A DNA stretch of 24,000 nt from Candidatus Acidiferrales bacterium (GCA_049514555.1 JBEKUY010000002.1:131356-155355), one strand, 5' to 3'; shown: positions 7,551 through 9,686, counted from the stretch's first letter. Numbers and translations are program-made. The notes: generated by a model not told the origin, from the sequence alone.

Positions 7551-9686
7551 ATGCCGAACACACTCCGCACTCAGCTTCTGAGGACGGTGGATTTTGCGGC
7601 GTGCAAGGCTGCCAGCGCCACCTTCAAGGCGATTCAGTTCTTCAATAAGTACAAACCGAACCCGTCATTCACGCCAAAATGGTCGGAAAAACCGCTGCTG
7701 AAGTCCTGGGAGAAGTCCAAGCCCACGCTCGGCTGGCCGCGGGAGACAGACTCGCTCTGCCCCGACTGCGTGAAGGAAGCCCGCCAGGCGATCCTGGACG
7801 GCAAGAAGGACTGGCACGACCTGACGCTCGAAAAGGTCGGCGAGATCAAGGCGCAGATCATCGAGCGCGACGGCCAGGTTTGGATGGTGAAGGAATGTCC
7901 CATCCACGGCCACTACGAAGACATTATGGCCGTCGACGCGAAGTTCCTCTCCTGGATCGAGCAAAACTTCCCCGGACGCGATATCCCGGCGCACAACGAC
8001 GACGAATTCCACCGCCACGGTTCGAGCACAGTCCGTTACGGCCGGGGCGCGGTCCTGACCTTGGACCTGACGAATCGCTGCAACATGATGTGCGATCCCT
8101 GCTTCATGGACGCCAACCAAGTGGGCTACGTCCACGAGCTATCCTGGGAAGAAATCCAAGAAATCCTGGACAACGCCATCCAAATCAAGCCGCGGCGTCA
8201 GCTTTCGGTCCAGTTCTCGGGCGGCGAGCCGACGATGCATCCCTACTTCCTGGATGCGATCCGCTACGCGCGCAAGGTCGGCTACAACAGCGTGCAGGCG
8301 GCCACGAACGGCATTGAGTTCGCCAAGAGCAAGGACTTCTGCCGCAAGGCGTTCGATGCGGGCTTGCGCTACGCCTACCTGCAGTTCGACGGAATCGGCA
8401 ACGACGCCAACAGCCACCGTCAGGTGGGCAATCTCTTTGACGTGAAGCTCCGTGCCATCGAGAACATGCACGAGGCTGGCATCAACATCGTGTTGGTGGT
8501 CACCATCGTCAACAACGTGAACAACGATCAAGTCGGCACGATCGTCAAGTTCGCCATGCAGAACCCGAACAAGATTGCCTTCATCGCCTTCCAGCCGGTC
8601 TCGTTCACGGGTCGCGATGAAGATGTCACACCCGAGCGGCGCTTGCGCCAGCGCTACACCCTGTCGCACCTGGCCCAGGACGTCAGCGCGCAGGTGGGCA
8701 AGATCGAGCCCACCCGCGATTGGTTCCCGATCTCGGCCATCAGCACATTCTCAGCCTTCTCGGACCTGGTGCACGGACCCAACTACGAGTGGGGCGCGCT
8801 CTCCTGCGGCTGCCATCCGAACTGCGGCGTCAGCACCGCTGTGATGATCCATAAACAGACCAAGGCGTGGGCCCCGGTGACCCGTTTCCTCGACGGACCC
8901 CAGCTCATGAAGGACGTGACCGCGATCACCGACGCAGCCCGCGGCACGACGTTCTCGAACTTCATGATGGCCCTGGCCCTCCTCAAGAACTACAAGCCGT
9001 TCCAGGGGCCCGAGGGCCTGACCCTTTCCCACCTTTTGAAGAAATTCGACAAGACCTGGGCGCTGAGCAAGAAAGCCGGCACGAGGTATGGGAAGACGAG
9101 CCCGGGCCGGACGTATGAAGACGAAGTGCGGCGCCGCACCGAAGACCCGTGGAACTTCCTGTTCATCGCGGGGATGTGGTTCCAGGATCTCTTCAACTAC
9201 GATTTCCGCCGCACCGAAATGTGCATCATCCCCTACGGCACGCAACAGGGCGAGATTTCTTTCTGCGCCTACAACACCGGAATCGGCTGGCGCAAGATCA
9301 TCGAGAACATGCACAAGAACGCGACCGTCGCCGAGTGGTATAAGACGCACGGCAAGCACGAGATCTTTGCCAAGGGCAAGAGCGTCAACCTCGAGACCTA
9401 CGAGCACTCGCTCACGATCGACGCCGAGGATGCCGCTCGGGTCCGCCCGAAGGAACACGACATCCCCATGACCGCGGCAGAGGAAGACCGCATCCGCCGC
9501 AAGAAGGCTCTTGAAGAGCAGGCCAAGGTCCGGGCGATTTACGAAGAGCTTGTTCTCAAGAAGCCCAAGCAGGGAGTCGTCCAGATTGGCTCCCTAGGCG
9601 ACATCGCCAAGGCCACGCCGGGCAACGGCAAGGGTTCGGCCGCGAAGAGGGAAGCGCCCGAAGCCGCTCCGGTCGCCGGCGACTGA
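7551..9686 (+). CDS. Radical SAM enzyme, tetraether lipid synthase (Tes / GDGT-MAS, COG1964-like) family homologue
   Basis: 711-aa ORF with a GAAGGAGGGG RBS upstream. The N-terminus has a Cys3-His rubredoxin-like pair, SLCPDC...VWMVKECPIHGH. The radical SAM motif is LDLTNRCNMMCDPCFMDAN. Further blocks are QFSGGEPT, AATNGIE, YLQFDGIG, IAFQPVSFTGRDE, SCGCHPNCGVS, FQDLFNYDFRR and MCIIPYGTQQGEISFCAYNTG. The C-terminal tail is Lys/Glu-rich. The radical SAM call is firm. The subfamily call is from memory of the MJ0619 and MA_1486 sequences. Confidence 0.8.
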   Translation: MPNTLRTQLLRTVDFAACKAASATFKAIQFFNKYKPNPSFTPKWSEKPLLKSWEKSKPTLGWPRETDSLCPDCVKEARQAILDGKKDWHDLTLEKVGEIKAQIIERDGQVWMVKECPIHGHYEDIMAVDAKFLSWIEQNFPGRDIPAHNDDEFHRHGSSTVRYGRGAVLTLDLTNRCNMMCDPCFMDANQVGYVHELSWEEIQEILDNAIQIKPRRQLSVQFSGGEPTMHPYFLDAIRYARKVGYNSVQAATNGIEFAKSKDFCRKAFDAGLRYAYLQFDGIGNDANSHRQVGNLFDVKLRAIENMHEAGINIVLVVTIVNNVNNDQVGTIVKFAMQNPNKIAFIAFQPVSFTGRDEDVTPERRLRQRYTLSHLAQDVSAQVGKIEPTRDWFPISAISTFSAFSDLVHGPNYEWGALSCGCHPNCGVSTAVMIHKQTKAWAPVTRFLDGPQLMKDVTAITDAARGTTFSNFMMALALLKNYKPFQGPEGLTLSHLLKKFDKTWALSKKAGTRYGKTSPGRTYEDEVRRRTEDPWNFLFIAGMWFQDLFNYDFRRTEMCIIPYGTQQGEISFCAYNTGIGWRKIIENMHKNATVAEWYKTHGKHEIFAKGKSVNLETYEHSLTIDAEDAARVRPKEHDIPMTAAEEDRIRRKKALEEQAKVRAIYEELVLKKPKQGVVQIGSLGDIAKATPGNGKGSAAKREAPEAAPVAGD

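What the first reader, a model, noticed from the sequence alone, without database searches (positions are those of the whole stretch)
7551..9686. Bacterial homologue of the archaeal tetraether lipid synthase (Tes / GDGT-MAS) radical-SAM family
What the sequence shows:
- A 711-aa radical-SAM protein with an N-terminal CPDC...CPIHGH (Cys3-His, rubredoxin-like) module.
- CNMMCDPC as the SAM-cluster motif.
- A second Cys set, C-G-C-HPN-C plus C...FC-AYN, that could hold one auxiliary cluster.
- The blocks QFSGGEPT, YLQFDGIG, FQPVSFTGR, NYDFRR and ISFCAYNTG.

As I recall it, this block order and wording matches MJ0619 (GDGT-MAS) and the Tes family, which join two lipid tails tail-to-tail to make membrane-spanning tetraethers.

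Bacterial homologues, notably in Acidobacteria, have been proposed as the missing enzyme for branched GDGT or iso-diabolic-acid membrane-spanning lipids. To my knowledge that role is not settled biochemically.

Two differences from the archaeal enzyme as I remember it:
- There is no Cys-rich CPxDCGLCxxH-type motif between the N-terminal module and the SAM motif. No Cys is present there at all.
- There is an extra Lys/Glu-rich tail of about 90 aa.

The gene stands alone, with a 340-nt leader in front and a strong hairpin behind, and has no lipid-biosynthesis neighbours.
Basis: partly seen in the sequence, partly recalled or inferred. Interest (0 to 1): 0.75.

Follow-up and report, generated by a model that had tools for sequence, protein, structure and literature searches.

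The report
Divergent bacterial tetraether-synthase-like radical SAM enzyme
This soil acidobacterium gene encodes a real but divergent relative of the archaeal enzyme that joins two lipid tails into membrane-spanning lipids; it lacks one of that enzyme's four metal centres. It is a published but untested candidate for making bacterial brGDGT climate-proxy lipids.

Summary

It is a true homologue of archaeal Tes/GDGT-MAS.
- Best PDB sequence hit is 7TOL (E 1.3e-59).
- The AlphaFold model (pLDDT 84) matches 7TOM/7TOL at TM 0.86-0.87. The next-best fold is MoaA, at about 0.5.

It is not a canonical Tes.
- It scores 317 bits against NCBIfam's Tes model, whose cutoff is 450.
- It has only one CxxxCxxC motif. 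The [4Fe-4S]N site (CPxxCGxCxxH) is missing.
- It keeps the rubredoxin-like Cys3His site, the SAM cluster, and every equivalent of the catalytic C-terminal cluster ligands (C425, M542, C558, C572, plus C419 and C421).
- This pattern is invariant in about 75 orthologues from subdivision 2, 3 and 4 Acidobacteria and from Gemmatimonadota.

Its length and similarity scores fit the second, longer Tes homologue of the brGDGT producer Solibacter usitatus (Acid_2410, 714 aa).

Linking bacterial Tes homologues to brGDGTs was published in 2022. I found no experimental test of that link. There is no lipid-gene neighbourhood in the window or in related loci.

Verdict: a known candidate family, and a cofactor-reduced variant of it. 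Moderate interest.

The parts
7551..9686 (+). Gene for a 711-aa Tes/GDGT-MAS-like radical SAM protein (stop codon at 9684-9686).
   Evidence: ORF. Pfam PF23545 and PF04055. NCBIfam Tes model 317 bits, below the 450 cutoff. PDB 7TOL E 1.3e-59. Model matches 7TOM/7TOL at TM 0.86-0.87.
7551..7736 (+). N-terminal extension, aa 1-62. Predicted helix at 5-34, then the conserved segment PxW...PLL...LGxPR. Absent from MJ0619 and from classical Tes-type proteins.
   Evidence: Alignments A1 and A3 show P42, W44, P63 and R64 invariant in the N-less clade. Helix 5-34 has pLDDT 80-91. Hydrophobic moment is only weak to moderate, 0.26-0.42.
7737..7928 (+). Rubredoxin-like Cys3His zinc-ribbon module, aa 63-126. 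Ligands are C70, C73, C116 and H119. It carries a ~22-aa insertion: CX2C-X42-CX2H, against C9X2C12X20C33X2H36 in MJ0619.
   Evidence: Pfam Zn_ribbon_HMPTM E 1.9e-14. MJ0619 motif from Lloyd 2022. The four ligands are invariant in 74 orthologues.
7929..8048 (+). Linker, aa 127-166, occupying the place of the archaeal [4Fe-4S]N domain. It has no Cys. Its conserved motif is H154-x-H156-G157-S-S.
   Evidence: In the MJ0619 alignment, CPYDCGLCPNH sits opposite DDEFHRHGSS. All classical representatives carry CPxxCGxCxxH, and all representatives at least 38% identical to the query lack it. H154, H156 and G157 are invariant in 75 orthologues.
8079..8102 (+). Radical SAM cluster motif C177-x3-C181-x2-C184 (CNMMCDPC). 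It is the only CxxxCxxC in the protein.
   Evidence: The Radical_SAM domain spans aa 173-335.
8805..8825 (+). C419-G-C421-H422-P-N-C425, the first part of the C-terminal auxiliary cluster site. C425 aligns with the single Cys of MJ0619 in HQHC. C421 aligns with the CHPHC Cys of most classical Tes-type proteins.
   Evidence: All residues are invariant in 75 orthologues.
9174..9266 (+). Second part of the C-terminal cluster site. M542 is the equivalent of the labile ligand Met439 of MJ0619. C558 and C572 are the other two ligands.
   Evidence: Residue-by-residue alignment to 7TOL (chain numbering = MJ0619 numbering + 20). Met439 is described in Lloyd 2022. All three are invariant in 75 orthologues.
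9396..9683 (+). Variable, charged C-terminal tail, about aa 616-711. Helix at 642-669, the rest disordered.
   Evidence: pLDDT is below 50 for 634-643, 673-680 and 688-711. Conservation drops to 0.23-0.25 after aa 681. Orthologue lengths vary.
7211..7550 (+). 340-nt leader. Contains a conserved block at about 7314-7410 and a Shine-Dalgarno sequence at about 7533-7539.
   Evidence: Alignment A4. CCGTY repeats at 7318, 7338, 7359 and 7391, and CAACCTATAGG at 7400. No Rfam family. No sigma-70 consensus promoter.
9717..9745 (+). Perfect 12-bp hairpin 31 nt after the stop codon. Probably a transcript end or stabiliser. No T tract follows it.
   Evidence: (-34.5 kcal/mol, z = -4.3).

Best explanation
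The gene encodes a radical SAM enzyme of the Tes/GDGT-MAS fold. It belongs to a bacterial clade that fits the long second Tes homologue of Solibacter usitatus, Acid_2410.

**Most likely chemistry (inferred by analogy to MJ0619).**
1. The SAM cluster (C177/C181/C184) cleaves SAM to give a 5'-deoxyadenosyl radical.
2. That radical abstracts a hydrogen from the terminal carbon of a membrane-lipid tail held in a hydrophobic tunnel.
3. The carbon radical is parked on a sulfide of the C-terminal [4Fe-4S] cluster (C421/C425/C558/C572, with M542 as a labile ligand).
4. A second SAM turnover on a second tail displaces it and forms a C-C bond.

In an acidobacterium the likely substrates are iso-C15 chains of diether or diacyl glycerolipids. 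The products would be iso-diabolic-acid-type or brGTGT/brGDGT-type membrane-spanning lipids.

Unlike archaeal Tes, it works without the N-terminal [4Fe-4S] cluster. It keeps the rubredoxin-like iron site and adds a conserved N-terminal extension and a disordered charged tail.

**Shown:** homology, fold, and which metal ligands are present or absent.
**Inferred:** the substrate, the product, and that the reaction is tail-to-tail coupling.
For: - **Sequence and profile.** NCBIfam's best model is Tes: 1.7e-94, full length, aa 66-589 on profile positions 2-483 of 486. The best PDB hit is GDGT-MAS 7TOL at 1.3e-59; the next is MoaA at 5e-08.
- **Fold.** AF2 model pLDDT 84.2, pTM 0.83. Foldseek gives 7TOM/7TOL at E 2e-37 and TM(target) 0.86-0.87. 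All other radical SAM structures match only the TIM-barrel core, TM about 0.5 or less.
- **Catalytic cluster retained.** The C-terminal cluster carries the C-S intermediate in MJ0619. C425, M542, C558 and C572 align to the MJ0619 positions. They are invariant, along with C419, C421 and H422, in 75 orthologues that are 65-83% identical across several phyla and subdivisions.
- **Tolerance of bacterial lipids.** MJ0619 binds ester-linked E. coli phospholipids in its active site.
- **Link to brGDGT producers.** S. usitatus, in which brGDGTs reach up to 66% of major lipids, has two Tes homologues. One is 714 aa with 30.1% identity and E 4e-62 to MA_1486, which fits this protein's type. Solibacteraceae and Sulfopaludibacter MAGs carry 69-70% identical orthologues (L050 and L051). 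Edaphobacter aggregans makes brGDGT-Ia, and its single homologue scores 32% and 4e-61.
- **Distribution.** Orthologues occur in Pyrinomonadaceae/Blastocatellia MAGs. From my own knowledge, not checked here, this subdivision-4 group is rich in ether-bound iso-diabolic acid.
Against: - No bacterial Tes homologue has been tested experimentally.
- The protein fails NCBIfam's curated Tes cutoff and lacks one of the four metallocentres.
- Neither the window nor related loci have a lipid-gene neighbourhood. Conserved neighbours are housekeeping genes or of unknown function.
- The sister clade, represented by Terriglobus roseus WP_014786616, has lost the C-cluster cysteines and sits on a mobile element. 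Function has therefore drifted within this lineage.
- Under stringent criteria, Tes homologues were found in only 3 of 14 iso-diabolic-acid-producing acidobacteria. At least some acidobacteria must make membrane-spanning lipids another way.
- The host group, subdivision 2 / 'Candidatus Acidiferrales', appears here only as MAGs. From my own knowledge, not checked here, no lipid data exist for it.
- I could not retrieve Acid_2410 itself, so orthology to it rests on length, reported scores and related MAG sequences.
Confidence: 0.55

Rival explanations
1. It is a lipid-tail-modifying radical SAM enzyme of the Tes fold, but it catalyses a different reaction from intermolecular tail-to-tail coupling. 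Options include intramolecular macrocyclisation, mid-chain cross-linking, or C-S or C-H functionalisation of fatty or alkyl chains.
For: - It has the same fold and catalytic cluster as Tes, but it is clearly a separate clade with a changed cofactor set.
- MJ0619 itself makes both macrocyclic archaeol and GDGT from one active site.
- S. usitatus keeps both a classical and a long homologue, which suggests they have non-identical roles.
- Related families such as Gms use similar cluster-dependent chemistry for other lipid C-C bonds.
Against: No evidence points to any specific alternative product. The retention of all C-cluster ligands and the full-length fold match are most simply read as the same chemistry.
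Confidence: 0.2
2. The classical Tes-type paralogue (Acid_5929-like) makes bacterial tetraethers. This long N-cluster-less paralogue has an unrelated, non-lipid substrate, for example a cofactor or pterin as in the legacy 'HMPT dimethyltransferase' annotation, or a peptide.
For: - Many close homologues are labelled '7,8-dihydro-6-hydroxymethylpterin dimethyltransferase' by JGI.
- The score is below the Tes cutoff.
- The second-best NCBIfam model is TrsS, a family of unknown chemistry, at 218 bits.
- No lipid genes lie nearby.
Against: - The pterin-methylase label derives from MJ0619 itself. Lloyd 2022 judged it incorrect on structural grounds: the enzyme has a hydrophobic tunnel with bound lipids.
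- The TrsS score is far below its 490 cutoff and below the Tes score.
- The model matches the whole GDGT-MAS structure, including the C-terminal lipid-binding domain.
- I found no precursor-peptide or cofactor-pathway context.
Confidence: 0.12
3. It is a decaying or catalytically impaired paralogue, because loss of the N cluster breaks the electron path to the SAM cluster.
For: - One of the four metal sites is gone.
- The sister clade has gone on to lose the catalytic cluster as well.
Against: - Conservation is very strong: 65-83% identity across subdivisions 2, 3 and 4 and Gemmatimonadota, with all remaining ligands invariant in about 75 orthologues.
- Thousands of homologues exist in metagenomes.
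- The reading frame, ribosome-binding site and conserved leader element are intact.
Confidence: 0.03

Closest known systems
Archaeal tetraether synthase Tes / GDGT-MAS (MJ0619, PDB 7TOL/7TOM; MA_1486; NCBIfam NF045702)
   Same: - Full-length fold: TM 0.86-0.87, 27-28% identity.
- Rubredoxin-like Cys3His site and the CX3CX2C SAM cluster.
- C-terminal auxiliary cluster ligands, including the Met439 equivalent.
- Conserved blocks GGEPT, YLQFDG and FQPVSFTGR.
   Different: - No [4Fe-4S]N site; the C73/C77/C80/His equivalents are absent.
- A 22-aa insertion in the rubredoxin knuckle.
- A ~60-aa conserved N-terminal extension and a ~100-aa charged tail.
- Two extra invariant Cys (C419, C421) at the C cluster.
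- Scores 317 bits against a 450 cutoff.
- The host is a bacterium with presumably non-isoprenoid lipids.
Solibacter usitatus Ellin6076 Tes homologues Acid_5929 (545 aa) and Acid_2410 (714 aa) (Halamka 2022, Table S5)
   Same: Acid_2410 matches in length (714 against 711 aa) and in similarity to archaeal Tes (30.1%, E 4e-62, against this protein's 27-28% and 1e-59 to MJ0619). Subdivision-3 MAG orthologues are 69-70% identical. Both proteins are proposed, but untested, brGDGT condensing enzymes.
   Different: Acid_5929 is the classical type: 40% identical to MA_1486 and of classical length. I could not fetch either sequence, so orthology to Acid_2410 is inferred, not aligned.
Terriglobus roseus-type Tes-like proteins (WP_014786616, P0134)
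   Same: Sister clade in the NJ tree. About 37-41% identical, depending on the alignment. Also lacks the N cluster, and shares the N-terminal extension and the rubredoxin insertion.
   Different: It has lost C419/C421/C425/C558, and often C572 as well. It scores 239 bits on the Tes model. The T. roseus copy lies among relaxase, T4SS coupling protein and integrase genes.
Bacterial membrane-spanning lipid synthase Mss (Thermotoga maritima / Thermoanaerobacter ethanolicus; Sahonero-Canavesi 2022)
   Same: A radical SAM enzyme shown to couple fatty-acid tails into (iso-)diabolic acids. A Tes-like auxiliary-cluster mechanism has been postulated for it.
   Different: It is a different radical SAM family. 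T. maritima and T. ethanolicus have no Tes homologue, and the acidobacterial genomes examined have no mss homologue. I did not compare it directly here, because no Mss sequence was available.
Radical SAM (seleno)protein TrsS (NCBIfam NF045646)
   Same: Second-best profile hit, covering aa 98-576.
   Different: 218 bits against a 490 cutoff. Always weaker than the Tes model, for this protein and for all relatives tested.

Membership tests
Tes / GDGT-MAS sensu stricto (NCBIfam NF045702 equivalog) | Whole-protein HMM score at or above the curated cutoff of 450 bits. | tested here: not met
   317.1 bits. Classical-type representatives score 386-593, five of seven above the cutoff. N-cluster-less relatives score 239-414.
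Tes / GDGT-MAS sensu stricto | Radical SAM CX3CX2C cluster in a partial TIM barrel. | tested here: met
   C177/C181/C184. Pfam Radical_SAM E 7.9e-20. Fold match.
Tes / GDGT-MAS sensu stricto | Rubredoxin-like mononuclear Fe site, CX2C...CX2H. | tested here: met
   C70, C73, C116 and H119, invariant in orthologues. The spacing is X42 instead of X20.
Tes / GDGT-MAS sensu stricto | N-terminal auxiliary [4Fe-4S]N cluster. This is the second CxxxCxxC motif plus His: C73/C77/C80/His in MJ0619, and the 'two CxxxCxxC motifs' of Zeng 2022. | tested here: not met
   No Cys lies between residues 116 and 177. There is only one CxxxCxxC in this protein and in 74 of 74 orthologues.
Tes / GDGT-MAS sensu stricto | C-terminal auxiliary [4Fe-4S]C cluster (3 Cys plus labile Met439), the site of the C-S intermediate. 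| tested here: met
   By alignment, C425, C558, C572 and M542 are the equivalents. All are invariant, with extra C419 and C421.
Tes / GDGT-MAS sensu stricto | Overall multi-domain fold with a hydrophobic lipid tunnel. | tested here: met
   Foldseek 7TOM/7TOL E 2e-37, TM(target) 0.86-0.87 over about 555 columns. Tunnel geometry was not examined.
Tes / GDGT-MAS sensu stricto | Catalyses Csp3-Csp3 coupling of two lipid tails. | not testable with these tools
   Needs expression or deletion plus LC-MS, or in vitro assays. No bacterial homologue has been tested.
Broad Tes-like family (Pfam PF23545 Zn_ribbon_HMPTM + PF04055; InterPro IPR034474 as used by Lloyd 2022) | Domain architecture: N-terminal zinc ribbon followed by a radical SAM domain. 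| tested here: met
   Both Pfam domains score above their gathering cutoffs. All listed homologues have the same architecture.
Bacterial Mss (membrane-spanning lipid synthase) | Sequence homology to Tmari_0825 or the T. ethanolicus Mss. | not tested
The literature reports no mss homologues in the acidobacterial genomes examined.
TrsS radical SAM (seleno)protein (NF045646) | HMM score at or above 490 bits. | tested here: not met
   218.2 bits.
HMPT (pterin) dimethyltransferase, legacy annotation of MJ0619 | Pterin-binding active site and a methanopterin pathway in the host. | not testable with these tools
   Lloyd 2022 judged the annotation of the founding member incorrect. No methanopterin-pathway gene was recognised among the window's ORFs, but the host genome beyond the window was not examined.

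The most novel reading that the evidence does not exclude
The long, N-cluster-less, Acid_2410-type clade, rather than or in addition to the classical Tes-type paralogue, is the enzyme that makes membrane-spanning brGDGT or iso-diabolic lipids in soil Acidobacteria. That would include the uncultured but abundant subdivision 2.

It would run the Tes C-C coupling chemistry with only two [4Fe-4S] clusters plus the rubredoxin-like iron. Published gene screens that require at least 30% identity to archaeal Tes would then systematically miss the main soil brGDGT producers.
Probability: 0.3. Interest if true: 0.8.

Novelty: new variant of a known kind. Interest (0 to 1): 0.45.

Why it matters
brGDGTs underpin widely used palaeo-temperature and pH proxies, yet the enzyme that couples their alkyl chains has never been shown. 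This analysis does not solve that, but it sharpens the test in three ways.

- **Three cofactor classes.** Acidobacterial 'Tes homologues' fall into classical proteins with all four metal sites; this type, which lacks the N cluster but keeps the catalytic cluster; and a T. roseus type, which also lacks the catalytic cluster. Only the first two are credible coupling enzymes.
- **Screens may miss this type.** It is 27-28% identical to MJ0619 (the reported Acid_2410 value against MA_1486 is 30.1%) and scores below NCBIfam's cutoff. Screens that demand at least 30% identity can therefore miss it. It is nonetheless very abundant in soil metagenomes and is present in subdivision 2, 3 and 4 Acidobacteria and in Gemmatimonadota.
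- **A natural experiment on the N cluster.** If this type is active, it shows that the [4Fe-4S]N cluster of Tes is dispensable for the chemistry.

Tried and rejected
- **Locus search with a broad alignment.** The narrower alignment returned only the 80 closest loci, all MAGs at 65% identity or above. Cultured species, including S. usitatus and E. aggregans, were not retrieved.
- **Looking for named organisms.** Two cluster look-ups and two further homologue searches gave only Terriglobus roseus, Terracidiphilus, Phycisphaerae and Parcubacteria labels. No cultured member of the window's own clade turned up.
- **AlphaFold-database fold search.** Intended to find Q025C7, but the library was unavailable.
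- **Supplementary tables.** Those of Sahonero-Canavesi 2022 are not held, and those of Zeng 2022 did not contain the acidobacterial names.
- **Papers on the S. usitatus genes.** A search for Acid_2410, Acid_5929, Q025C7 and Q01U00 found none.
- **Leader RNA and promoter.** Rfam found nothing in 7000-10200. The sigma-70 scan found no promoter, and the terminator scan did not flag the hairpin because no T tract follows it.
- **Conserved gene neighbourhood.** Only within-order synteny with an unknown upstream ORF appeared, plus housekeeping neighbours in other lineages. I rejected this as functional evidence.
- **Other identities considered and rejected.** Peptide maturase (SPASM/twitch), MoaA-like and NirJ/Ahb-like: these profiles match only the radical SAM core, at 82 bits or less, and the corresponding structures reach TM of about 0.5 or less.
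- **N-terminal helix as membrane anchor.** The hydrophobic moment is only weak to moderate, so I make no claim.
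Full report
**1.

The ORF at 7551-9686 (+) is real: 711 aa, ATG start. An AAGGAGG ribosome-binding site lies about 12 nt upstream. The start codon is conserved in 13 related loci.

- CPDC at aa 70 and CPIHGH at 116.
- CNMMCDPC at 177.
- CGCHPNC at 419.
- C558 and C572.
- The blocks QFSGGEPT, YLQFDGIG, FQPVSFTGR, NYDFRR and ISFCAYNTG.

No Cys lies between residues 116 and 177. The last ~90-110 residues are rich in K, E and A.

The leader is 340 nt. A perfect 12-bp hairpin sits at 9717-9745 (-34.5 kcal/mol, z = -4.3), with no T tract after it.

The window's other genes are not lipid genes. They include:
- a DUF255 thioredoxin-domain protein;
- MoaA;
- an FmdB-type zinc-ribbon peptide;
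- TonB-C proteins;
- DUF2461;
- a saccharopine-dehydrogenase-like protein;
- RidA;
- RelA/SpoT;
- a TPR protein;
- ExbB and ExbD;
- several unknowns.

**2. What it is**

Pfam finds Zn_ribbon_HMPTM (aa 63-126) and Radical_SAM (aa 173-335).

The best NCBIfam model is 'tetraether lipid synthase Tes': 1.7e-94, end to end. At 317 bits it is below the curated 450-bit cutoff. TrsS is second at 218 bits.

The best solved relative is GDGT-MAS MJ0619 (7TOL, E 1.3e-59). MoaA follows at 5e-08.

An AlphaFold model was built on 79 homologues: pLDDT 84.2, pTM 0.83. It matches 7TOM/7TOL at E 2e-37, TM(target) 0.86-0.87 and 27-28% identity. Every other radical SAM structure matches only the barrel core, at TM of about 0.5 or less.

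The 'pterin dimethyltransferase' label carried by many database homologues is the legacy annotation of MJ0619. Lloyd et al. 2022 judged it incorrect.

**3. How it differs from Tes**

Archaeal Tes has four metal centres:
- a rubredoxin-like Fe (C9X2C12X20C33X2H36);
- [4Fe-4S]N (C73, C77, C80 and a His);
- the SAM cluster;
- [4Fe-4S]C (three Cys plus the labile Met439), which carries the C-S intermediate.

Mapped through the 7TOL alignment (chain numbering = MJ0619 + 20), the window protein compares as follows:

| Site in MJ0619 | Window protein |
|---|---|
| Rubredoxin-like Fe | Kept: C70, C73, C116, H119, with a 22-aa insertion |
| [4Fe-4S]N | Absent: CPYDCGLCPNH is replaced by DDEFHRHGSS |
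| SAM cluster | Kept: C177, C181, C184 |
| [4Fe-4S]C | Kept: C425, M542 (= Met439), C558, C572, plus C419 and C421 |

Most classical Tes proteins also have the C421 equivalent, in a CHPHC motif.

The split by motif is clean. In a search of 1.84 billion cluster representatives, 9,385 hits had E < 1e-3. Full-length representatives at least 38% identical to the query all lack CPxxCGxCxxH. Nearly all of those at 33-37% have it.

An NJ tree groups most N-less proteins in one clade, apart from the classical ones. Two N-less representatives fall outside it:
- P0130 branches at the base of the classical group.
- P0219, from Parcubacteria, is nested within the classical group.

On the Tes model, classical representatives score 386-593 bits, five of seven above the cutoff. 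N-less proteins score 239-414.

**4. Who has it**

The exact protein is on a 38-kb JGI metagenome contig.

The 80 best, at 65-83% identity, are all MAGs:
- 'gp2' / Candidatus Acidiferrales (subdivision 2, the closest at 77-83%);
- other Terriglobia;
- Solibacteraceae and Sulfopaludibacter (subdivision 3);
- gp5 and gp18;
- Pyrinomonadaceae / Blastocatellia (subdivision 4);
- Gemmatimonadota.

A few MAGs carry odd labels and are probably mis-binned.

In the 74-75 complete orthologues the following are invariant, and there is exactly one CxxxCxxC:
- the twelve ligand positions;
- H154, H156 and G157;
- H422;
- G541, M542 and W543.

A sister clade is typified by Terriglobus roseus WP_014786616 (37-41% identity, depending on the alignment). 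It lacks the N site and has also replaced C419, C421, C425 and C558. The T. roseus copy lies among TrwC relaxase, TraG-like coupling protein, integrase and partition genes, so it is on a mobile element.

**5. Link to the literature**

- Zeng et al. 2022 found 456 bacterial Tes homologues and proposed them for brGDGT synthesis. They cited Koribacter (42%), S. usitatus (40%) and E. aggregans (one homologue, 32%, E 4e-61).
- Chen et al. 2022 used that lead to show that S. usitatus makes brGDGTs at up to 66% of its major lipids.
- Halamka et al. 2022 list two S. usitatus homologues. Acid_5929 is 545 aa, 40.2% identical, E 1.4e-139. Acid_2410 is 714 aa, 30.1% identical, E 4.2e-62. They suggest 'one or both' condense iso-C15 diethers.
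- The window protein (711 aa; 27-28% and 1e-59 to MJ0619) fits the Acid_2410 class, not the classical one. I could not fetch Acid_2410, so this is an inference.
- Sahonero-Canavesi et al. 2022 found Tes homologues in only 3 of 14 iso-diabolic-acid-producing acidobacteria, using E of 1e-50 or below and identity of 30% or above, and found no mss homologues there. At 27-30% identity, this clade sits on the edge of that filter.
- I found no experimental test of any bacterial Tes homologue up to mid-2026.

**6. Mechanism**

*Shown:* the fold, the SAM cluster, the retained catalytic auxiliary cluster, the retained rubredoxin-like site, and the lost N cluster.

*Inferred:* the protein performs the Tes reaction on bacterial lipid tails. 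The steps are H abstraction at a terminal carbon, capture of the radical on a cluster sulfide, a second SAM turnover, and C-C bond formation. The products would be membrane-spanning lipids.

Two points make this plausible. The role of the N cluster in MJ0619 is unknown, and M439A retains activity. MJ0619 also accommodates ester-linked bacterial phospholipids.

Points against are these:
- no genomic context;
- no experiment;
- functional drift in the sister clade;
- evidence that many iso-diabolic-acid producers lack Tes homologues.

I put 0.55 on tail-to-tail lipid coupling, 0.2 on other lipid-tail chemistry, about 0.12 on a non-lipid substrate, and about 0.03 on an impaired relic.

**7. Context**

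The gene is probably monocistronic.

An unknown 366-aa ORF (6110-7210, same strand) is conserved immediately upstream in 34 related loci plus the window itself. All are within the closest relatives, so this reads as ordinary synteny.

The leader holds a conserved block with three CCGTY repeats 20-21 nt apart and a CAAACTATAG element. It has no Rfam match.

In Pyrinomonadaceae the neighbours are DivIC, S21, SurE, PCMT and a DedA-family protein.

**8. Verdict**

This is a genuine Tes/GDGT-MAS homologue and a member of an already catalogued candidate family. It belongs to a cofactor-reduced variant class whose distinction from classical Tes I did not find described.

It is interesting as a sharpened hypothesis for the brGDGT problem. 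It is not a discovery of a new system. Interest 0.45.

Noticed in passing
window 7314-7410 (leader of the gene): A block conserved across 14 subdivision-2 loci. It has three direct CCGTY repeats at 7318, 7338 and 7359, spaced 20-21 nt apart, a fourth at 7391, and then CAACCTATAGG at 7400. The rest of the leader is not conserved. It may be an operator or promoter. There is no Rfam hit and no sigma-70 consensus.
   Followed up: partly
window 6110-7210 (+): A 366-aa ORF with no Pfam or NCBIfam family. It has a small N-terminal helical part, an Arg-rich disordered linker (KKRRRRGVRGGRRHRRGRGK), and a C-terminal domain with only a faint GIY-YIG_2 hint (E 0.039). It is conserved directly upstream of the Tes-like gene, on the same strand, in 34 related loci plus the window itself, all among the closest relatives.
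   Followed up: partly
L082 / L083 (Terriglobus roseus-type locus), gene at 10001-11875: The T. roseus Tes-like gene (WP_014786616) sits between TrwC relaxase, TraG/TrwB coupling protein, two integrases, ParA and a replication protein. It is therefore on an integrative or plasmid-like mobile element. Its clade has lost the cysteines of the catalytic C-terminal cluster.
   Followed up: partly
L060 6534-7703, L061 2310-3491, L063 6529-7779, L080 6460-7737; L040 4956-6587: In four Gemmatimonadota loci a second, uncharacterised radical SAM gene of 390-425 aa lies immediately upstream of the Tes-like gene. Its best NCBIfam hits are only about 90 bits, to AhbD and NirJ-like models. In one Terriglobia locus a 543-aa radical SAM/SPASM gene lies just downstream. 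These could be lipid-modifying partners.
   Followed up: partly
P0219 and its cluster (Parcubacteria / Minisyncoccales, 510 aa): A CPR-bacterial Tes-like protein also lacks the N-cluster motif but groups with classical Tes-type proteins in the NJ tree. This suggests the N site has been lost more than once.
   Followed up: no
window 9799-10026 (+): A 75-aa FmdB-type zinc-ribbon ORF (Pfam Zn_ribbon_8, E 9e-12) directly after the hairpin. It ends in a Gly/Cys-rich tail, GGGGGCAPGGCGCH.
   Followed up: no
window 4759-5841 (-): A second radical SAM gene in the window. It is an ordinary MoaA (Mob_synth_C plus Radical_SAM), unrelated to the finding. It is also the next-best structural class hit for the Tes-like protein.
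   Followed up: no
window 19660-23245 (-): A TPR protein, two ExbD, ExbB and a TonB-C protein form a Ton-system cluster. RelA/SpoT lies at 17317-19536 (-). Another TonB-C domain protein is at 10166-11236 (+).
   Followed up: no
window 9-764 (+) / 16-771 (-): Two fully overlapping 251-aa ORFs on opposite strands at the window edge. Only the + strand ORF has a weak, sub-threshold GGDEF match (E 1.3e-4). The coding strand is unresolved.
   Followed up: no
L081 180-8591 (Pyrinomonadaceae genome contig): Upstream of the Tes-like gene in a Pyrinomonadaceae genome are AtuA-like, enoyl-CoA hydratase and methylmalonyl/isobutyryl-CoA-mutase-like (MM_CoA_mutase plus B12-binding) genes. This acyl-CoA metabolism could touch branched-chain precursors. 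It is not conserved elsewhere.
   Followed up: no
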